NCBI GenBank assembly: GCA_900543055.1
Contig: UQQI01000001.1
Coordinates: 14,350-78,349, forward strand
DNA length: 64,000 bases
Reading direction: 5' to 3'
From: an uncultured Mollicutes bacterium
Lineage (GTDB): Bacteria > Bacillota_I > Bacilli_A > RF39 > UBA660
Shown here: positions 53,724 through 60,691 of the stretch, in pieces
Numbering within the stretch: the first letter of the stretch is position 1
How the letters are laid out: each line of letters starts with the position of its first letter
The notes under the pieces: model-generated
Database searches by the model: none
Told to the model about the DNA's origin: nothing
The model's input: only the letters and a program-made list of their open reading frames with translations
Made by a program: the position numbers and the translations under genes

Positions 53724-54479
53724 ATGAAAGCTTTAATTACAGGGGCATCTTCGGGAATAGGACTTGATATGGCAAGATATCTAGCAACTAAAAAATGTGA
53801 ATTAATTCTAGTTTCTAGAAATAAAGAAAAACTAGAAGAAATTCAAGAAACACTACCAACGAAGGTAACAATAATAGTAGCTGATTTATCACAAGAACAA
53901 AGGGTAAAAGAACTTTATGCCTTTGCAAAAAAAGAAAATATTGACATACTAATAAACAATGCTGGACTAGGAGACTTCGGTCCATTGACAGACACAGATT
54001 TAACCAAAGATTTAGAACTAATAAATACAAACATAAAAGCGGTTCATATATTAACAAAATACTTTGTTAAAGATATGGAAAAGAGAAACACAGATACATA
54101 TATACTAAACGTTGCATCTTCAGCGGCATTCCAACCAGGACCGTTAATGAGTACTTATTATGCCACTAAATCATACGTATATCAATTGACAGAAGCATTA
54201 TATTATGAGGAGAAAAAGAAAAAAACAAAGGTACATGTGTCAGTTTTGTGCCCTGGACCAGTAGCAACAAACTTTAATGACGTAGCAGGAGTAAAATTTT
54301 CTGTAAAACCATTAACAAGTGCTTATGTTGCAAGATATGCAATAGATGAAATGCTAAAAAATAAAATGCTAATAATACCAGGTTTTAAAATGAAATGTGC
54401 TAAATTTTTTAGTAGATTTGTATCAGATAAATTTTTATTAAGAATTATTTATCGAGTACAAAAAAGAAAGGCCAGCTAA
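53724..54479 (+). CDS. Short-chain dehydrogenase/reductase (SDR) family oxidoreductase
   Basis: TGASSGIG Rossmann motif, NNAG, and Y-x3-K (YYATKSYV) catalytic motif. Confidence 0.75.
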   Translation: MKALITGASSGIGLDMARYLATKKCELILVSRNKEKLEEIQETLPTKVTIIVADLSQEQRVKELYAFAKKENIDILINNAGLGDFGPLTDTDLTKDLELINTNIKAVHILTKYFVKDMEKRNTDTYILNVASSAAFQPGPLMSTYYATKSYVYQLTEALYYEEKKKKTKVHVSVLCPGPVATNFNDVAGVKFSVKPLTSAYVARYAIDEMLKNKMLIIPGFKMKCAKFFSRFVSDKFLLRIIYRVQKRKAS

Positions 54480-54520: not shown

Positions 54521-55306
54521 ATGGAAGTAATACTTAATATTAATGATTTAAAATATAAAAACTTATTTGAAAATTTAAGTATTTATATTGAAAAAGACAA
54601 GATTACAACTATCTCAGGTGCAAATAATTGTGGGAAAACAACACTATTAAGAATTTTAACAAGACAAGTAAAAACAGAAAATAATATAGTCTTATATGGA
54701 AAGAATATAAATGAATATAAATTTGAAGATTATATTAGATATATAAGATGTGTGATACCAAAAGAAATAATTTTTATAGAAAATAATTTAGAAGAAGAAA
54801 TGTATTTTCAATCAGAACTTCCAGGTAAAGATAAAACAATATTTATAAACTATATAATAAAAGGTCTAAAAATAAGAAGAATGATTAACAAAGAAATAAA
54901 AACATTATCAACAAATGAAATAGTATTAGCCCAAATTGCTTTAGCCCTAGTTAATCATCCACAAATACTTTTATTAGACAATATAGATAATTATCTTGAA
55001 GTAAAAGAATTAGAAAATGTTTATAATTTTTTAAGAGACTTTAGAGAAAAGTTTGGTTTAACAGTAGTAATGACAACTTTAGATTTAAATCAAAGTTTAT
55101 ACTCTGATTACTTATATATAATTGGAGAAAAGAAAATATTACTATCCGGAGAACCAATCACCATATTACAAAGAGATAATATTATAAATAAGACAGGATT
55201 AAGCTTGCCATTTATGGTAGATTTATCAGTGAAACTTAGAGATTATGATCTAATCAGCAACATTAATTTAGATAAAAACAGGATGATAAATGAAATATGG
55301 AAGTAA
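54521..55306 (+). CDS. ECF-transporter-type ABC ATPase homolog with degenerate catalytic motifs (EcfA-like pseudo-ATPase)
   Basis: Walker A intact (GANNCGKTT). The Q-loop is absent. Signature LSGGQ is replaced by LSTNE. Walker B LLLDNID lacks the catalytic Glu. The H-loop His is absent. Confidence 0.55.
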   Translation: MEVILNINDLKYKNLFENLSIYIEKDKITTISGANNCGKTTLLRILTRQVKTENNIVLYGKNINEYKFEDYIRYIRCVIPKEIIFIENNLEEEMYFQSELPGKDKTIFINYIIKGLKIRRMINKEIKTLSTNEIVLAQIALALVNHPQILLLDNIDNYLEVKELENVYNFLRDFREKFGLTVVMTTLDLNQSLYSDYLYIIGEKKILLSGEPITILQRDNIINKTGLSLPFMVDLSVKLRDYDLISNINLDKNRMINEIWK

Positions 55307-56088
55307 AGTTTAAAGGATATAAATGTAAAGATAATAGTTTAGACTTCACTATAAAAGAAAAAGAAGTAAATGGAATATGTGGAAAAAACTATGAAAATTT
55401 AATTAATATCATTAAATTAAAAAATTCATATAAAGGAAAAATAATAATAAATGATATCGAATTAAATAAAGATAATATTAACACTTTTAAAAATAAAATT
55501 AATGTTGTAAAAGAAGAAATAGAAGACTCAATTTATATACAAACAGTATATGACTTATTAAAATATGAAATAGAACGAAGAAAATTATCTATAAAAAATC
55601 CAGAAAAGAAAATATATGATTCATTAAAAATAGTAAATTTAGACAAAGAGTTATTAGAAAGAAATATATACACACTATCATCATCTGAAAAGAAATTTAT
55701 CCAATTAGCAATCTCACTTTTATCTAATCCTGATATGATAATTTTAATAGAACCATTTAAATTTTTAGATATGAAAAATGAAAAAAGAATAATGATTTTA
55801 TTAAATAAAATTAGAGAACAGTATAAAAAAACAATTGTAATTGTTACTAATAATACAAATATTATTTTTAAATATACAACTCATACTATAATATTTAAAG
55901 TAGATAAAATATTAGTAGAAGGAGATACTAAAGATATATTTCAAAGGGTAGACTTTTTAAGTAGGAATAAAATAAACATTCCAGAAATTGTTGAATTCAC
56001 TTATTTAGCTAAAAAGAAAAAAAATGTAAGTATTGATTATCATAGTGATATAAGAGATATTATTAAAGATATATATAAACATGTATAG
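55297..56088 (+). CDS. Second EcfA-like ABC ATPase homolog with all nucleotide motifs degenerate
   Basis: Walker A reads GICGKNYE (no GKS/T). Signature reads LSSSEKK. Walker B reads ILIEPFKF. ABC-like length and position (upstream of truA), but predicted non-catalytic. Confidence 0.5.
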   Translation: MEVKFKGYKCKDNSLDFTIKEKEVNGICGKNYENLINIIKLKNSYKGKIIINDIELNKDNINTFKNKINVVKEEIEDSIYIQTVYDLLKYEIERRKLSIKNPEKKIYDSLKIVNLDKELLERNIYTLSSSEKKFIQLAISLLSNPDMIILIEPFKFLDMKNEKRIMILLNKIREQYKKTIVIVTNNTNIIFKYTTHTIIFKVDKILVEGDTKDIFQRVDFLSRNKINIPEIVEFTYLAKKKKNVSIDYHSDIRDIIKDIYKHV

Positions 56089-56098
56089 GAGGAGTAAT

Positions 56099-56830
56099 AT
56101 GCGTTTTCTAATTAAATTTTCATATGATGGTACAAATTATTGTGGCTATCAAAAACAGCCAGGATTAGTAACTATAGAAGGAAAAATGGAGGAAGCTTTA
56201 ACAAAAATAAATAATGGTAAAAAAACATCTATTACAGCGACTGGTAGAACGGATAAAAAGGTCCATGCATTAGCTCAATATGCACATGCTGATATAGATG
56301 TTAACATAACTGAAAATAAGCTAAAAAGAGCGCTAAACAGCAATATCCCAGATGATATACATGTAATAGAGACAAAAATAGTAGAAGATAATTTTCATGC
56401 TAGATATAACGTAAGAGAAAAAACATATAAATATATTATAAATTTAGGTGAATATAATCCAATAGAAAGAAATTATGTATTTCAATACAATTATAAATTA
56501 GATATAAAAGCAATAAGAGAAGGAATAAAATATTTTGAAGGTACGCATGACTTTAGAGCTTTTGTAACAGATAACAAAGAAAAAGAAAACTGTATTAGGA
56601 CAATTTCATTAACAAATATAGAAGAAAAAGATAACAAATTAGTAATAACATTCAAAGGAGACGGTTTTTTAAGGTATCAAGTAAGAAACATGGTAGGAAT
56701 ATTAATCAAAATAGGTGAAAATAAAATTAGTCCGTCTAAAGTAAAAGAAATATTAGAAAGTAAAGATAGAACAAAAGCCGGAAAGACTGCACCAGCAGAA
56801 GGCTTATACTTAGTAGATGTTAAATATTGA
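56099..56830 (+). CDS. truA: tRNA pseudouridine(38-40) synthase
   Basis: RBS AGGAGG precedes ATG 56099. MRFLIKFSYDGTNYCGYQKQP…RTDKKVHA catalytic Asp motif. Confidence 0.9.
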   Translation: MRFLIKFSYDGTNYCGYQKQPGLVTIEGKMEEALTKINNGKKTSITATGRTDKKVHALAQYAHADIDVNITENKLKRALNSNIPDDIHVIETKIVEDNFHARYNVREKTYKYIINLGEYNPIERNYVFQYNYKLDIKAIREGIKYFEGTHDFRAFVTDNKEKENCIRTISLTNIEEKDNKLVITFKGDGFLRYQVRNMVGILIKIGENKISPSKVKEILESKDRTKAGKTAPAEGLYLVDVKY

Positions 56831-56884
56831 CATTGAAAAAATAATATATTATTATAATAAATATTCTAAAAAAGGGGGATAAAA

Positions 56885-57217
56885 ATGATAGGGACTTATA
56901 TAGACTTAGGGTCAATGACAAGTTTAATGTCAGCAGGTTCAACTACTGTATCAACATCATCAACTACAGATCATAATATTACTCCTGATGAATTAACTAC
57001 AACATTGTCATTATCAACAACTACAGCCGCATCATCACCATCATCACCATATAACACAATAGTTATGGACACGACACAAAGATATGTAGAATCACTATCG
57101 GATGATGAATTAATGAGATTTAGTGAATTAGTAGATGCGAAGCTTAATGATAATTCTTTTGAAAATAACAAGTTAATAGCCAAGCAAGAAGACATACCTA
57201 AAGTAAAAACTAAATAA
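56885..57217 (+). CDS. Ser/Thr-rich small protein (110 aa) with a conserved acidic C-terminal helix (YVESLSDDELMRF…LNDN); paralog of the 58076 gene
   Basis: Strong RBS AAGGGGGAT. N-terminal DLGSMTSLMSAGSTTV, then a Ser/Thr tract, then an acidic helix. No TM helix or signal peptide. Confidence 0.5.
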   Translation: MIGTYIDLGSMTSLMSAGSTTVSTSSTTDHNITPDELTTTLSLSTTTAASSPSSPYNTIVMDTTQRYVESLSDDELMRFSELVDAKLNDNSFENNKLIAKQEDIPKVKTK

Positions 57218-57311
57218 GAAAATTTTGGGAAAAATACAAAATAATCAACAAGTGTTGATTTTTTTTTAATATTTTGTTATAATATAGCCACATTGAAAGA
57301 TGTAAGGGGTT

Positions 57312-58079
57312 ATGGTTATGGATAAGAAAGAAAAAAAGAGATTAAAAAGATACATGCAAATTCACGAAATATTGGGAGCTGGAACATTTAAAAAGTTTGT
57401 TTTATTTCTTGAAAGAGTAAAATTTAAATATGGTAAGAAATTTTTTCCTAACTTTCAAAAAAATTATGAAAAATATATAGATTTAAGAACAAAGAGAGCA
57501 CTGGAAAAAGCTAAAACTGCTGAAGAAAGAAAACATATAAAAGAGCAAGCACTATTTTCAAAATTAGATATGCGTAAAGAAATAAATCAAGAAAAAAATA
57601 GAAATTATCATTTAGATGAAAAAAGACCTAAAGAAACATTATCATATCTAGAATGGAATAAAGGTGTACATAAACGTAGCTTAATAAAGAATTTTGCAGT
57701 AATTGGAGCATTATCTGCAGCGACAGTTTTAGGCTATAACTTTATAGTGCCACTCATTGTATTTGAATCGATATGTGCTTTAATTAATTTTCAATGTGTT
57801 AATCTTCAAGATTATAATATTTGCAGATATAAAATTGCAGAAGAATCTCTTGTAAAGTACGCAGAACGTACAAAGAAGAAAAAAATAGAACAATATAGTG
57901 ATGCAGCAGAATTGATATATGATTCTATTACAAAAGCAGATGATAAAATTCCAACAATTGATGAAATTGTTGCTAATTCAAAAAATAAAGAACAACTATA
58001 TCAATTAAAAGCATACTTAGAAGAAAATGAAAAAAGACGTAAACTACAAAATAGTGAAAATAAGGGGGTAATAAAATGA
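57312..58079 (+). CDS. Hypothetical membrane-associated protein (255 aa): basic N-terminus, central hydrophobic helices, C-terminal coiled coil
   Basis: RBS AAGGGG. Hydrophobic segment NFAVIGALSAATVLGYNFIVPLIVFESICALINF. Lies between the two paralogous small genes. Confidence 0.45.
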   Translation: MVMDKKEKKRLKRYMQIHEILGAGTFKKFVLFLERVKFKYGKKFFPNFQKNYEKYIDLRTKRALEKAKTAEERKHIKEQALFSKLDMRKEINQEKNRNYHLDEKRPKETLSYLEWNKGVHKRSLIKNFAVIGALSAATVLGYNFIVPLIVFESICALINFQCVNLQDYNICRYKIAEESLVKYAERTKKKKIEQYSDAAELIYDSITKADDKIPTIDEIVANSKNKEQLYQLKAYLEENEKRRKLQNSENKGVIK

Positions 58080-58381
58080 GTTTAATATCAACATTAGGAA
58101 TAACTACATTAGGAGGAGCATCAGTAGGAACAACAGTATACACAATAGATGATAATGGAATAAATAAAGGTAAGAGAAATCAAGTACTAGCAACTACTTT
58201 AACATCAACTGCTTCAGTAATTGCAAGTGAAGCAGTAAGTCAACGTGGTATTAAAGAAATACACGAAAAATACTCACAGGCATATATTGATTCGTTAACT
58301 GATGAAGAATTAGAAGTAGCTTTACAACAAGTAAATTTACTTTTAAATGACATGGACGAAGAAACAACAAAAACTATATAA
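58076..58381 (+). CDS. Ser/Thr-rich small protein (101 aa), paralog of the 56885 gene (YIDSLTDEELEVALQQVNLLLNDMDEE)
   Basis: Identical RBS style (AAGGGGGTA). N-terminal TLGITTLGGASVGTTV aligns with DLGSMTSLMSAGSTTV of the 56885 gene. C-terminal motif Y-[VI]-[ED]-SL-[ST]-D-[DE]-EL…LNDN/LNDM is shared. Confidence 0.5.
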   Translation: MSLISTLGITTLGGASVGTTVYTIDDNGINKGKRNQVLATTLTSTASVIASEAVSQRGIKEIHEKYSQAYIDSLTDEELEVALQQVNLLLNDMDEETTKTI

Positions 58382-58499
58382 AATAAAGAAAAAGTATTGA
58401 TTTTTAATACTTTTTTTAGTATAATTACAATCGGTACATTCAAATCCCCACATAAATTAGACTGTGGGAAAGTCTAATTTAAGTAAAAGGAGAAAAATT
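58382..58499 (+). promoter_or_regulatory. Structured leader upstream of rplM (L13 leader-type autoregulatory RNA candidate)
   Basis: Inverted repeats CCCACATAAATTAGACTGTGGG and TTAGACT…AGTCTAA lie immediately upstream of the rplM RBS. Confidence 0.35.
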
Positions 58500-58931
58500 A
58501 TGACAAGTTATATGCAAAAAAAAGAAACTGTAGAACGTAAATGGTATGTAATTGATGCTGAAGGAAAGTCTTTAGGTAGAGTAGCTTCTTTAGCAGCAAC
58601 TTACTTACGTGGAAAAAACAAGCCAACTTATACACCACATATTGATTGTGGAGATTATATCGTTATTGTTAACGCACAAAAAGTTAACTTAACTGGTAAC
58701 AAATTAGAAAACAAAATGTATTATAATCACTCAATGTATACAGGTGGTTTAAGAGAAAGAACTGCTAAAACTATGAGAGAACAATACCCCGTTGAAATGA
58801 TGGAAAGAGCTGTAACAGGAATGTTACCTCATAACAGATTAGGTAGACAAATGGCAAAGAAGTTATTTGTTTATGCAGAAAGTGAACACAAGCACGAGGC
58901 TCAAAAGCCAGAAGTACTTGAAGTTAAATAG
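58500..58931 (+). CDS. rplM: 50S ribosomal protein L13
   Basis: RBS AAAGGAG precedes ATG 58500. [30 protein letters not shown]. Confidence 0.9.
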
Positions 58932-59631: not shown

Positions 59632-60021
59632 ATGCATATAATATACCAGGAGGTTTATATGTTTAACGTAGATTATTTAAAACAATTATTAATTATTTCA
59701 ATAGCACTTAGTACAATAACCTGTGCATTTATTCAAAAAACAAAAATGTTATTTAAAAGTAGTAAATATATTGAATATTATTCATTCCTTGTTAATATGT
59801 TAGTAAGTGTAATTTTTTGTATTACATTTACTGATATAAAATTCCCTAATAGCTTATGGATAGGACTATTTTCTTTCCTAGGCGCCGATTCTCTATATAA
59901 ATCACTAGAAGGAAAAATATCTTCCCACAAAGATATAATAAATAAAAAAAAGATTACCATACCTGAAGAAAATATAATAAATAAGGAGGATGAAAATGGA
60001 AAAACCAATATTCCCAAGTAA
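59632..60021 (+). CDS. Small 3-TM membrane protein (129 aa), holin-like by size, topology and context
   Basis: RBS AGGAGG. Hydrophobic helices plus a charged C-terminal tail (KDIINKKKITIPEENIINKEDENGK). Overlaps the start of the downstream M23 peptidase gene. Confidence 0.4.
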   Translation: MHIIYQEVYMFNVDYLKQLLIISIALSTITCAFIQKTKMLFKSSKYIEYYSFLVNMLVSVIFCITFTDIKFPNSLWIGLFSFLGADSLYKSLEGKISSHKDIINKKKITIPEENIINKEDENGKTNIPK

Positions 60022-60691
60022 ATATATGAGAATAACTCAGGGATATAATATTGGAACTCATAAAGATTCATTCGCAATAGATAATGCTGACAAAGATAGT
60101 GGAATAAGTAATATATATGCCCCATTTACTGGTATAATAAAAAAGATATATCAAAATGATGCGAACGAAGTATGGTTAGAAAGTACTGATAAGGTAGAAT
60201 ATCCAGATGGAACAATTGACTATATGAATATTATGTTTGCTCATTGTAATGATATAAGTAATCTTTTTGTTGGAAAAATTATAAAACAAAATGAAGCATT
60301 TTATAAGGAAGGAACAAAAGGTAATGTAACAGGGAATCATTGTCATATAGAATGTGGAAAAGGAAGGTTTACTGGAACTGGATGGCATAAAAATAATGCA
60401 GGATATTGGAGTATCAATAATGGAAAAAGACCAGAAGAATGTTTATGGATAGATGATAGTATTAATATTTTAAATAGTAATAATTATAACTTCAAAAAAA
60501 TACCCACAAACTCTGTGGATAATAAAAGCAACAATGTGGATAAAAATAATGATAAAGCACCAGAAAAAAAAGAAATTTCCACAACTATTGTGGAAAAAGA
60601 AATTTTTAATTTCAAAGCACCTAAAACAGATTTATATGGAGTATACCTAAATAAAGATGAAATACTAATTATAAAATCTATCCAAGTATAA
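59996..60691 (+). CDS. M23 family (lysostaphin-like) metallopeptidase domain protein without a signal peptide (about 231 aa)
   Basis: RBS AAGGAGGA precedes ATG 59990/59996. Divergent first motif GTHKDSFAID, APFTGIIKKI, and HxH motif GNHCHIE. The C-terminal approximately 90 aa is Asn/Lys-rich with no recognisable cell-wall-binding domain. Confidence 0.5.
   Translation: MEKPIFPSKYMRITQGYNIGTHKDSFAIDNADKDSGISNIYAPFTGIIKKIYQNDANEVWLESTDKVEYPDGTIDYMNIMFAHCNDISNLFVGKIIKQNEAFYKEGTKGNVTGNHCHIECGKGRFTGTGWHKNNAGYWSINNGKRPEECLWIDDSINILNSNNYNFKKIPTNSVDNKSNNVDKNNDKAPEKKEISTTIVEKEIFNFKAPKTDLYGVYLNKDEILIIKSIQV

What the first reader, a model, noticed from the sequence alone, without database searches (positions are those of the whole stretch)
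56885..58381. Insertion between truA and rplM of two paralogous Ser/Thr-rich small proteins flanking a membrane protein
The 110-aa and 101-aa proteins share an N-terminal motif (LG-[SI]-[MT]-T-[SL]-…-GTTV), a Ser/Thr-rich middle and a C-terminal acidic helix with Y-[VI]-[ED]-SL-[ST]-D-[DE]-EL-…-LND[NM]. Both use the same unusually strong AAGGGGG RBS. They bracket a 255-aa protein with a basic N-terminus, hydrophobic core and coiled-coil tail. The SL[ST]D[DE]EL element resembles the LSxxEL core of double-glycine bacteriocin leaders, but sits at the C-terminus with no GG site. I know of no family with this layout. Candidates include a glycosylated (Ser/Thr-rich) secreted or regulatory peptide pair with a membrane partner.
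Basis: seen in the sequence. Interest (0 to 1): 0.65.

Follow-up and report, generated by a model that had tools for sequence, protein, structure and literature searches.

The report
CrtO-like membrane protein with Thr-rich partners
Between truA and rplM sits a conserved gene module found only in uncultured gut Bacilli: a membrane protein distantly related to the staphyloxanthin acyltransferase CrtO, always encoded next to one or two small acidic Thr/Ser-rich proteins of a previously undescribed family; its function is untested.

Summary
S1 (56885-57217), M (57312/57318-58079) and S2 (58076-58381) are real genes under purifying selection. S1 and S2 are true paralogs: each scores 45-54 bits against a profile built from the other type, while shuffled copies reach at most 9.5 bits.

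This is not a recent insertion. M occurs in at least 86 species of uncultured gut Bacilli and is absent from phage, plasmid and viral collections. An S gene lies next to M in essentially every complete locus. Downstream S genes start within 20 nt of the M stop or overlap it. Only 46 of 88 loci lie between truA and rplM, so M plus S is a self-contained two-gene module.

S has no detectable relatives. M has none by direct search, but 27 of 78 family members weakly and colinearly hit Pfam CrtO (PF18927). A profile-profile comparison scores 37 against 11.5 ± 1.7 for shuffled controls. It aligns N-x2-C-x3-Q-x-Y-N-x2-R after a short membrane hairpin.

Best reading: M is a divergent CrtO-superfamily enzyme, probably an acyltransferase acting at the membrane surface, with a dedicated protein partner or substrate. 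The bacteriocin-leader and secreted-peptide ideas are not supported. Function remains inferred.

The parts
56827..56855 (+). Promoter-like site upstream of S1 (TTGACA-17-TATTAT), overlapping the truA stop codon
   Evidence: Consensus scan, 11 of 12 matches. This is a pattern match only; the region as a whole has no excess of such sites.
56872..56878 (+). AAGGGGG ribosome-binding site of S1; its GGGGG run ends 6 nt before the ATG
   Evidence: Read from the sequence. It is one of only two AAGGGGG in the 64 kb window.
56885..57217 (+). S1: 110-aa acidic (pI 4.4) Thr/Ser-rich small protein, upstream-type member of the S family. The conserved Y-V-E-S-L-S-D-D-E-L motif is encoded at 57083-57112.
   Evidence: dN/dS 0.18.
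57243..57268 (+). Terminator-like hairpin (AUCAACA-AGUG-UGUUGAU) followed by a U run, after S1
   Evidence: Fold energy -5.5 to -8 kcal/mol, z = -1.6. Weak support; inferred.
57255..57283 (+). Promoter-like site for the M-S2 pair (TTGATT-17-TATAAT with an extended TG)
   Evidence: Consensus scan, 10 of 12 matches. Pattern match only.
57318..58079 (+). M: 253-aa basic (net charge about +20) membrane protein. An alternative ATG at 57312 would give 255 aa. In 255-aa numbering: NRNYH motif at residues 96-100 (57597-57611); short hydrophobic hairpin at about residues 124-165 (57681-57806); N-F-Q-C-V-N-L-Q-D-Y-N-I-C-R at residues 159-172 (57786-57827); helical C-terminal extension at residues 173-250.
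   Evidence: CrtO relationship. Charge and hydropathy.
58062..58068 (+). AAGGGGG ribosome-binding site of S2, lying inside the 3' end of M, where it encodes part of the ...NKGVIK tail
58076..58381 (+). S2: 101-aa acidic Thr/Ser-rich small protein, downstream-type member of the S family, with its start overlapping the M stop (ATGA). The conserved Y-I-D-S-L-T-D-E-E-L motif is encoded at 58283-58312. The C-terminal ~45 residues are predicted as a confident helical hairpin.
   Evidence: dN/dS 0.53.
58387..58417 (+). Terminator-like A/U-rich hairpin after S2, overlapping the promoter-like site of rplM (58397-58425)
   Evidence: Fold energy -10 kcal/mol, z = -4.2, no shuffle of 200 folds as well. 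Promoter-like site.

Best explanation
The three genes form a lineage-specific, vertically inherited membrane module of uncultured gut Bacilli. It comprises one M protein and one or two S proteins.

**M.** M is a divergent member of the CrtO superfamily (Pfam PF18927; founding member is the S. aureus glycosyl-4,4'-diaponeurosporenoate acyltransferase). It has a short hairpin of two hydrophobic helices. Invariant polar residues sit where both arms of the hairpin meet the cytoplasm: NRNYH and N-K-x-x-H before it, N-x2-C-x3-Q-x-Y-N-x2-R after it. Compared with CrtO it has lost the N-terminal membrane helix. It has gained a helical insertion of about 40 residues and a C-terminal helical extension of about 80 residues.

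**S.** S proteins are acidic. They have a Thr/Ser-rich N-terminal part that is probably disordered. They also have a conserved C-terminal helix-turn-helix (A-Y-V-E-S-L-S-D-E-E-L...) and a short basic tail.

**Proposed mechanism (inferred).** S docks through its acidic helical hairpin onto the strongly basic cytoplasmic helices of M. M acts as an acyltransferase at the membrane surface. S is either its accessory subunit or its hydroxyl-rich acceptor substrate.

**Shown:** the genes are real and under selection; S1 and S2 are homologous; M and S are strictly linked and closely spaced; the module is restricted to one lineage; M resembles CrtO in sequence.

**Inferred:** physical M-S binding, catalytic activity, and the nature of the substrate.
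For: **Linkage of M and S**
- In 88 loci, 106 ORFs match the S profile, and almost all lie next to M on the same strand. The arrangements are M-S in 54 loci, S-M in 11, S-M-S in 10 (plus one with a third copy) and S-S-M in 7. Most of the loci with no S are cut short or had a start-codon calling problem.
- All 67 downstream S genes but one start within 20 nt of the M stop, and 33 overlap or abut it. The exception is L031 (-40 nt), whose start call is uncertain.
- Apart from S, the neighbours vary. 46 of 88 loci are truA-module-rplM. Others include yqeY-M-S-yqfC-yqfD.
- One singleton M-S fusion protein exists, P0038.

**Distribution**
- At least 86 species, all uncultured gut 'Bacilli/Tenericutes/Erysipelotrichaceae'-labelled genomes.
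- 284 representatives among 1.84 billion proteins.
- None in phages, plasmids or IMG/VR.

**Relationship of M to CrtO**
- 27 of 78 M-family members hit PF18927 at E <= 1, best 2e-4. The next most frequent family is hit by 3 members.
- The hits are colinear. M residues about 75-172 match profile positions 34-122 of 123. In P0084, residues 3-42 match positions 12-48.
- hhalign of the M alignment against 42 non-redundant CrtO relatives gives probability 64%, P 6.5e-5, score 37.1. Sixty column-shuffled controls score 11.5 +/- 1.7 (maximum 16.1) and the reversed profile scores 11.7.
- The aligned conserved residues coincide in register: N, C, Q, Y, N and R.

**Structure and charge**
- The AlphaFold model of M has pLDDT 84 and is all-helical, with a hairpin at about residues 124-165.
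- In the M+S2 fusion model, S2 residues 55-97 form two helices at pLDDT 82-89, and residues 1-54 have pLDDT 21-36.
- M carries about +20 net charge (+18 in residues 1-122). S1 and S2 each carry about -7.4. The N-terminal part of S proteins is 32% Ser+Thr.

**CrtO function.** The acyltransferase role of CrtO is taken from PMC5587911.
Against: - The window's own M does not hit PF18927 even at E <= 10. All family hits fall below the gathering score of 27.3 bits.
- The confident profile-profile alignment covers only about 32 columns, at 64% probability.
- No glycosyltransferase, carotenoid or lipid gene accompanies the module. CrtO relatives, by contrast, often sit next to glycosyltransferases.
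- The catalytic residues and acyl donor of CrtO itself are unknown to me.
- M-S binding is inferred only. The fusion model returned no contact or PAE data, and its S part rested on 3 sequences.
- The single natural fusion is a singleton on a 2.4 kb contig and could be an assembly error.
Confidence: 0.5

Rival explanations
1. M is a non-enzymatic membrane scaffold. The hairpin protein with long cytoplasmic helices would organise or bend the membrane, or anchor a complex. S would be an intrinsically disordered acidic adaptor. The CrtO similarity would reflect only a shared hairpin fold.
For: M is all-helical, with a short 17+18-residue hairpin and coiled-coil-like tails. The weak, non-significant Foldseek neighbours are BAR-domain, ExbB/TolQ and ESCRT-III-like helical proteins. 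M and S have strongly complementary charges. No metabolic genes are linked to the module.
Against: The residues invariant across 78 divergent sequences are polar (N, H, C, Q, Y, N, R) and cluster where the hairpin meets the cytoplasm. They coincide in register with the conserved residues of an enzyme family. That pattern is more typical of a binding or active site than of a scaffold.
Confidence: 0.27
2. S1 and S2 are precursors of ribosomally made, modified or secreted peptides (bacteriocin-like, perhaps glycosylated). The SLSDEEL region would act as a C-terminal recognition 'follower' peptide. M would be the modifying, export or immunity protein.
For: The core is Ser/Thr-rich and evolves quickly, next to a conserved recognition-like helix. 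S and a membrane protein are strictly paired. Copy number varies between 1 and 3.
Against: There is no signal peptide, no GG cleavage site, almost no Cys, and no C39-peptidase ABC exporter, YcaO, LanM or glycosyltransferase nearby. The module is single-copy, vertically inherited in housekeeping neighbourhoods, and absent from mobile elements. The N-terminal part is not pure low complexity: it carries conserved motifs (the D-x-D loop and L-G-T-T-x-T-S-T-A-T-T) across the whole family. S1-type and S2-type form separate orthologous groups conserved across several genera.
Confidence: 0.07
3. M replaces the missing EcfT component of the ECF transporter whose diverged ATPase genes (ecfA1, ecfA2) lie just upstream. 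The S proteins would be accessory factors.
For: The canonical Firmicute order is ecfA1-ecfA2-ecfT-truA-rplM. Here, and in about 50 syntenic loci, no ecfT is present, and a ~250-aa membrane protein with long cytoplasmic helices follows truA. In L020 one M copy sits exactly in the ecfT slot.
Against: M has only one hydrophobic hairpin, where EcfT, as I recall it, is a protein with several membrane helices. No CbiQ/EcfT Pfam hit appears in any of 78 members. No EcfT chain is among the PDB Foldseek matches. About 30 of 88 loci carry the module far from the ecfA genes. An ecfT gene could simply lie elsewhere in the genome; this was not testable here.
Confidence: 0.04

Closest known systems
CrtO, glycosyl-4,4'-diaponeurosporenoate acyltransferase (Pfam PF18927)
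   Same: Both are small membrane proteins built around a short hairpin of two hydrophobic helices. Conserved polar motifs flank the hairpin on both sides. The motif after the hairpin matches in register: CrtO has N-l-P-C-I-I-v-Q-R-Y-N-R-p-R and M has N-F-Q-C-V-N-L-Q-D-Y-N-I-C-R. There is a conserved His just before the hairpin and an N-terminal E-x2-G...K...P-[DN] segment. Weak Pfam matches are colinear in 27 of 78 members. hhalign scores 37 against 11.5 +/- 1.7 for shuffled controls.
   Different: All scores fall below Pfam's gathering threshold, and the window protein does not hit at all. M lacks the N-terminal membrane helix seen in the aligned staphylococcal CrtO proteins. It has a helical insertion of about 40 residues carrying a family-specific NRNYH motif, and a helical C-terminal extension of about 80 residues. 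CrtO's E-T-x-R-A-E acidic motif is replaced by N-K. No carotenoid or glycosyltransferase genes are nearby. M has an obligate small-protein partner; I did not examine CrtO loci for such a partner, and none appeared in the six short plasmid stretches I fetched.
Double-glycine leader peptides of class II bacteriocins and lanthipeptides
   Same: Both contain a short acidic helix with an L-S-x-x-E-L-like core.
   Different: In S the motif is C-terminal rather than N-terminal, and no GG/GA cleavage site follows it. No C39-peptidase ABC exporter is nearby. The motif spans the turn of a helix-turn-helix in a protein conserved along its whole length.
Acyl carrier protein (D-S-L phosphopantetheine site at the start of helix II)
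   Same: S is a small acidic protein with a nearly invariant Ser in [DE]-S-[LM]-[ST]-D-E-E-L..A-L. This resembles the ACP sequence D-S-L-D-T-V-E-L..A-L, which I recalled from memory.
   Different: No PP-binding (PF00550) hit appears among the 25 most frequently matched families for 63 S proteins. AlphaFold places the Ser at the end of helix 1, not at the N-terminus of a helix. I treat the resemblance as coincidental.
EcfT (CbiQ family) of ECF transporters
   Same: Similar protein length, and a similar position in the rplQ-ecfA-ecfA-(ecfT)-truA-rplM gene cluster.
   Different: No sequence or fold similarity. M has one hydrophobic hairpin, where EcfT (as I recall it) has several membrane helices. 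The module also occurs away from the ecfA genes.

Membership tests
CrtO / PF18927 | Scores at or above the Pfam gathering threshold (27.3 bits) | tested here: not met
   The window's M gives no PF18927 hit at E <= 10. The individual scores shown are 11-19 bits, and the best family E-value is 2e-4.
CrtO / PF18927 | Statistically supported remote homology to the family profile | tested here: met
   27 of 78 members hit PF18927, against 3 for the next family. hhalign gives P 6.5e-5, probability 64% and score 37.1. Column-shuffled controls reach at most 16.1 and the reversed profile 11.7.
CrtO / PF18927 | Short hydrophobic hairpin followed by the conserved N-x-P-C-x3-Q-R-Y-N-R-x-[RK] motif | tested here: met
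   M has N159-F-Q-C162-V-N-L-Q166-D-Y168-N169-I-C-R172. N, C, Q, Y, N and R align in register, and these positions are invariant or nearly so in M.
CrtO / PF18927 | E-T-x-R-A-E-x-x-H motif before the hairpin | tested here: inconclusive
   M has Y-L-x-W-N-K-x-V-H with invariant N116 and H120. The His can be aligned by hand, but the low-confidence hhalign path shifts it by 3 residues and the acidic residues are absent.
CrtO / PF18927 | Genomic association with glycosyltransferase or C30-carotenoid genes | tested here: not met
   None of the recurrent neighbours within 3.5-4 kb of M in 88 loci matches the named window genes or resembles such a gene by inspection; most neighbour clusters were not annotated. 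The plasmid CrtO relatives do have such neighbours.
CrtO / PF18927 | O-acyltransferase activity | not testable with these tools
   Requires biochemistry. The CrtO role is taken from the literature (PMC5587911).
Double-glycine leader peptide (bacteriocin / lanthipeptide precursor) | N-terminal leader ending in a GG/GA/GS cleavage site | tested here: not met
   The motif lies at residues 67-76 of 110 (S1) and 70-79 of 101 (S2), with no GG after it.
Double-glycine leader peptide (bacteriocin / lanthipeptide precursor) | Linked C39-peptidase ABC exporter or modification enzyme | tested here: not met
   The neighbours are truA, rplM and two ECF-type ATPases that have no membrane or peptidase domain. 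Neighbours at other loci are variable.
Acyl carrier protein (PP-binding, PF00550) | Match to the PP-binding profile | tested here: not met
   PF00550 is not among the families listed for S2 or among the 25 families most often matched by 63 S proteins at E <= 1. The PDB profile search found no carrier protein.
EcfT (CbiQ, PF02361) | Sequence or fold similarity to EcfT | tested here: not met
   CbiQ is not among the recurrent Pfam hits. No EcfT chain is among the top 50 PDB Foldseek matches, all of which have E > 1.
Known anti-phage defence or phage protein families | Match to PADLOC or PHROGs profiles, or presence on mobile elements | tested here: not met
   No PADLOC hit, and only noise-level PHROG hits. 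Absent from the phage, plasmid and IMG/VR collections.

The most novel reading that the evidence does not exclude
M is a dedicated protein O-acyltransferase. Using the CrtO-type site where its hairpin meets the cytoplasm, it would esterify fatty acids onto Thr/Ser hydroxyls of the disordered N-terminal tails of its docked S partners. This would create a previously unknown class of cytoplasmic-face, O-lipidated bacterial membrane proteins. It would be a bacterial analogue of eukaryotic MBOAT-type Ser acylation or of corynebacterial O-mycoloylation, built on an unrelated small enzyme.
Probability: 0.12. Interest if true: 0.8.

Novelty: new variant of a known kind. Interest (0 to 1): 0.45.

Why it matters
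**For the CrtO family.** This would extend the poorly understood CrtO family of very small membrane acyltransferases to a new architecture with an obligate protein partner. The strict M-S pairing offers a handle on what such enzymes recognise.

**For gut microbiology.** The module is a conserved marker, encoded next to housekeeping genes, of a widespread lineage of uncultured gut Bacilli with small genomes. Their membrane biology is essentially unknown.

**For annotation.** The S proteins define a new small-protein family that standard annotation leaves unnamed.

**If the strong reading holds.** Protein O-acylation by M would be a new kind of bacterial protein lipidation.

**Otherwise.** It remains a solid but modest result: two uncharacterised families with a clear co-evolutionary link.

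Tried and rejected
**Direct family searches.** Pfam, NCBIfam, PADLOC and PHROGs searches of the three window proteins gave nothing significant.

**PDB searches.**
- Sequence-profile searches with the M and S alignments gave nothing.
- Foldseek of the M model against the PDB gave a best E of 1.5, with only generic long-helix proteins.

**Complex prediction.** A fallback fusion of the window's M and S2, with unpaired homologs, ran. It returns no contacts, so docking remains unverified.

**Single-sequence comparison.** That sequence was first validated as a PF18927 member at 84.6 bits. It was then supplemented by annotated plasmid homologs and by 80 metagenome loci.

**Consensus sequence.** The consensus of the M family did not hit CrtO in Pfam.

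**Ideas rejected.**
- ACP-like carrier role for S: no PP-binding signal.
- S as a membrane protein with two helices: only 3 of 101 have a 19-residue window with mean Kyte-Doolittle hydropathy >= 1.6.
- EcfT replacement, toxin-antitoxin or defence system, and phage origin: rejected on the evidence.

**Other negative results.**
- Exact look-up of the window's M protein found no contig.
- Rfam and tRNA scans of the window found nothing.
Full report
**1. The observation**

The region holds three same-strand ORFs exactly as described:
- S1, 56885-57217, 110 aa.
- M, 57312-58079, 255 aa.
- S2, 58076-58381, 101 aa, overlapping the M stop codon in an ATGA.

Pfam confirms the flanks. truA (PF01416) lies upstream, and rplM (PF00572) and rpsI (PF00380) lie downstream.

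The shared ribosome-binding site is real. AAGGGGG occurs only twice in the 64 kb window. Its GGGGG run ends 6 nt before the S1 start codon and 7 nt before the S2 start codon.

One correction concerns the M start. The GGGG of its ribosome-binding site lies 2 nt from the first ATG and 8 nt from the second (57318). The nearest homolog, P0001, begins MDKKEKK. M is therefore most likely 253 aa.

Promoter-like and terminator-like sites suggest two transcription units, S1 alone and M-S2 together. These are pattern matches only.

GC content across the module is 25-29%, which is ordinary for this 28% GC window.

**2. Are S1 and S2 really paralogs?**

- Pairwise BLASTP gives E 4e-5 over the C-terminal 64 residues.
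- I built profiles from small proteins at related loci, leaving out the window and its closest relative L008.
- S1 scores 54.2 bits against the downstream-type profile, and S2 scores 45.0 bits against the upstream-type profile. Both matches are nearly full length.
- The best of 200 composition-preserving shuffles of each protein scores 9.5 bits.

The similarity is therefore homology, not shared composition.

The family consensus reads:

M..l....tT.lgtt..t...D.d...lgTT.tstaTt.s ... aYvESLSDEELa.l..lLd.KE.el....Kvl.K

The Tyr and the first Ser of Y-x-E-S are nearly invariant.

**3. Are the genes real and under selection?**

dN/dS between the window and L008:

| Gene | dN/dS |
|---|---|
| S1 | 0.18 |
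| M | 0.28 |
| S2 | 0.53 |
| truA, rplM | about 0.05 |

**4. Distribution and linkage**

How common M is:
- 18 clusters in the 5.8-billion-protein index.
- 284 representatives at 50% identity among 1.84 billion proteins.
- Relatives in at least 86 of 185,579 species genomes. All are uncultured gut genomes labelled Bacilli, Tenericutes, Erysipelotrichaceae, 'Mycoplasma sp. CAG:877' or Candidatus Faecimonas/Onthousia. NCBI places the last two in Bacilli incertae sedis. A few carry evidently wrong bin labels.
- None in phage, plasmid or IMG/VR collections.
- No source gives any family member a name.

How fast S evolves:
- Direct searches found only close relatives, 3 clusters for S2 and 15 for S1.
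- BLAST splits the S proteins into many unlinked groups.
- A profile finds 106 S ORFs in the 88 loci, almost all next to M on the same strand.

Arrangements of the module:

| Arrangement | Loci |
|---|---|
| M-S | 54 |
| S-M | 11 |
| S-M-S | 10, plus one with a third copy |
| S-S-M | 7 |

Further points on linkage:
- Most of the loci with no S are cut short or had a start-codon calling problem. L053 may carry divergent S genes that the profile missed.
- All 67 downstream S genes but one begin within 20 nt of the M stop, and 33 overlap or abut it. The exception is L031 (-40 nt), whose start call is uncertain.
- Only 46 of 88 loci have the truA-module-rplM arrangement. About 30 lie elsewhere, for example yqeY-M-S-yqfC-yqfD, and have no other recurrent neighbour.
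- Within the window's clade, upstream-type and downstream-type S proteins form two distinct groups conserved across genera. In S-S-M loci the copies are recent tandem duplicates.
- One M-S fusion protein exists, P0038, but it is a singleton.

M plus S is a self-contained, vertically inherited two-gene module. It is not a recent insertion.

**5. What is M?**

The family alignment shows these invariant residues, in 255-aa numbering:
- N96-R-N-Y-H100.
- N116 and H120.
- C162, N164, Q166, Y168-N169 and R172.

AlphaFold gives a confident all-helical model (pLDDT 84) with these parts:
- Four N-terminal helices.
- A loop carrying NRNYH.
- A hairpin of two short hydrophobic helices at about residues 124-165.
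- A long helix continuing from the second arm of the hairpin.
- A C-terminal helical pair.

The protein carries about +20 net charge, of which +18 is in residues 1-122. Given that charge distribution, both ends are presumably cytoplasmic. The invariant polar residues would then sit where the hairpin meets the cytoplasm.

Foldseek against the PDB found nothing (best E 1.5).

The motif Q-x-Y-N-x-x-R reminded me of the staphyloxanthin acyltransferase CrtO, so I tested that lead in six steps:
- Scanning 78 family members one by one against Pfam, 27 hit PF18927 (CrtO) at E <= 1, with a best value of 2e-4. The next most frequent family was hit by 3 members.
- The matches are colinear. M residues about 75-172 align to profile positions 34-122 of 123. 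In P0084, residues 3-42 align to positions 12-48. Both halves of the CrtO domain are therefore matched, separated by an insertion.
- I validated a CrtO sequence recalled from memory as a PF18927 member at 84.6 bits. I then collected verifiable homologs. These were plasmid genes annotated as glycosyl-4,4'-diaponeurosporenoate acyltransferase and 80 metagenome loci.
- hhalign of the M alignment against 6 CrtO sequences gave P 5e-4.
- Against 42 non-redundant relatives it gave probability 64%, P 6.5e-5 and score 37.1.
- Sixty column-shuffled versions of the CrtO profile scored 11.5 +/- 1.7, with a maximum of 16.1. The reversed profile scored 11.7.

The confident core aligns the CrtO consensus Y-A...N-l-P-C-I-I-v-Q-R-Y-N-R-p-R-L with M's I-N-F-Q-C-V-N-L-Q-D-Y-N-I-C-R-Y. 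Six conserved polar positions match in register.

The relationship is remote:
- The window protein itself does not hit the Pfam model.
- All family hits fall below the gathering score.
- The E-T-x-R-A-E-x-x-H motif is only partly matched.

I conclude that M is a divergent member of the CrtO superfamily. It has a different architecture: no N-terminal membrane helix, an insertion of about 40 residues, and a C-terminal helical extension of about 80 residues.

CrtO esterifies the C-6'' hydroxyl of the glucose in glycosyl-diaponeurosporenoate with 12-methyltetradecanoic acid (PMC5587911). Several of its relatives lie beside glycosyltransferase genes. M has no such neighbours.

**6. What is S?**

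- No Pfam family recurs among 63 members. In particular there is no PP-binding hit, which rejects an ACP-like reading of the [DE]-S-[LM] motif.
- The PDB profile search found nothing.
- S proteins are acidic, with a median pI of 4.5. S1 and S2 each carry a net charge of about -7.4.
- The N-terminal part is 19% Thr and 13% Ser.
- Only 3 of 101 have a 19-residue window hydrophobic enough for a membrane helix.
- None has a signal peptide.

In an AlphaFold model of the window's M fused to S2, S2 residues 55-97 form two helices at pLDDT 82-89, with the turn at L-T of D-S-L-T-D. Residues 1-54 have pLDDT 21-36. The S part of that alignment had only 3 sequences. The predicted disorder is therefore provisional, and the tool reports no contacts.

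**7. Proposed mechanism**

Shown:
- A strict, co-inherited, closely spaced gene pair.
- An enzyme-like set of invariant polar residues where the M hairpin is predicted to meet the cytoplasm.
- Remote homology to an O-acyltransferase family.
- Charge complementarity between basic M and acidic S.

Inferred:
- S docks through its helical hairpin onto M's cytoplasmic helices.
- M catalyses acyl transfer.

Speculative, about 12%:
- The hydroxyl-rich tails of S are the acyl acceptors.

Rivals:
- A non-catalytic scaffold, about 27%.
- A modified or secreted peptide system, about 7%.
- An EcfT substitute, about 4%. This idea arose because ecfT is absent from the ecfA1-ecfA2-truA cluster in all syntenic loci. 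It is contradicted by the lack of any similarity and by loci far from the ecfA genes.

**8. Verdict**

The paralogs, the layout and the novelty of S are correct. The insertion, bacteriocin-leader and secretion ideas are not supported.
- The feature is a new variant of a known kind: a CrtO-superfamily protein with a new architecture and an obligate partner family that has not been described.
- It is confined to uncultured gut Bacilli, and its function is untested.

Noticed in passing
window 54521-56088: Two ABC ATPases best match ECF_ATPase_1 (85 bits, cut-off 315) and ECF_ATPase_2 (113 bits, cut-off 330). They appear to be very diverged ecfA1 and ecfA2. The second has a degenerate Walker A (GICGKN). 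No ecfT follows them in the window or in about 50 syntenic loci. An SDR gene (53724-54479) sits between rplQ and ecfA1.
   Followed up: partly
window 59632-60021 and 59990-60691: A 129-aa hydrophobic protein and an overlapping 233-aa protein have no Pfam or NCBIfam match. They are conserved downstream of rpsI in 29 and 26 of the related loci. This is another uncharacterised, lineage-conserved pair.
   Followed up: partly
L003 7236-12733 (also L005, L022): In one species group a cassette lies between the S gene and where rplM would be expected. It encodes a 127-129-aa helical protein, a DUF4176 protein and a 1605-aa protein. From memory this resembles a type VII secretion LXG-toxin locus.
   Followed up: no
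L079 3483-3653, L081 3663-3848, L083 3662-3832: Small ORFs with double-glycine-leader-like N-termini (MQKIDNQELTQIVGG...) lie about 1.3 kb upstream of the M gene in the yqeY-M-S-yqfC-yqfD type of locus. They are probably genuine bacteriocin precursors unrelated to S.
   Followed up: no
L020 4174-8260 (Candidatus Faecimonas intestinavium): Two copies of the module flank truA (S-S-M-truA-M-S). One M copy occupies the slot where ecfT normally lies.
   Followed up: partly
window 58382-58523: No Rfam family reaches its gathering score anywhere in the 64 kb window, including upstream of rplM where I would expect an L13 leader. No tRNA genes were found either. The ribosomal leaders of this lineage may be too diverged for current models.
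   Followed up: no
C-termini of M-family proteins (window 58050-58079; P0008, P0009, P0042, P0066): The recurrent K-G-G or G-G-K residues at the extreme C-terminus of M proteins coincide with the GGGGG/GGAGG ribosome-binding site of the overlapping downstream S gene. This apparent protein motif is probably imposed by the translation signal.
   Followed up: partly
L091, L092, L093 (plasmid loci of CrtO-family relatives): CrtO-family genes outside staphylococci are annotated 'hypothetical' or not annotated at all (Vescimonas, Picosynechococcus, Cytobacillus). They sit directly beside glycosyltransferase genes, which suggests a wider role of the family in glycolipid acylation.
   Followed up: no
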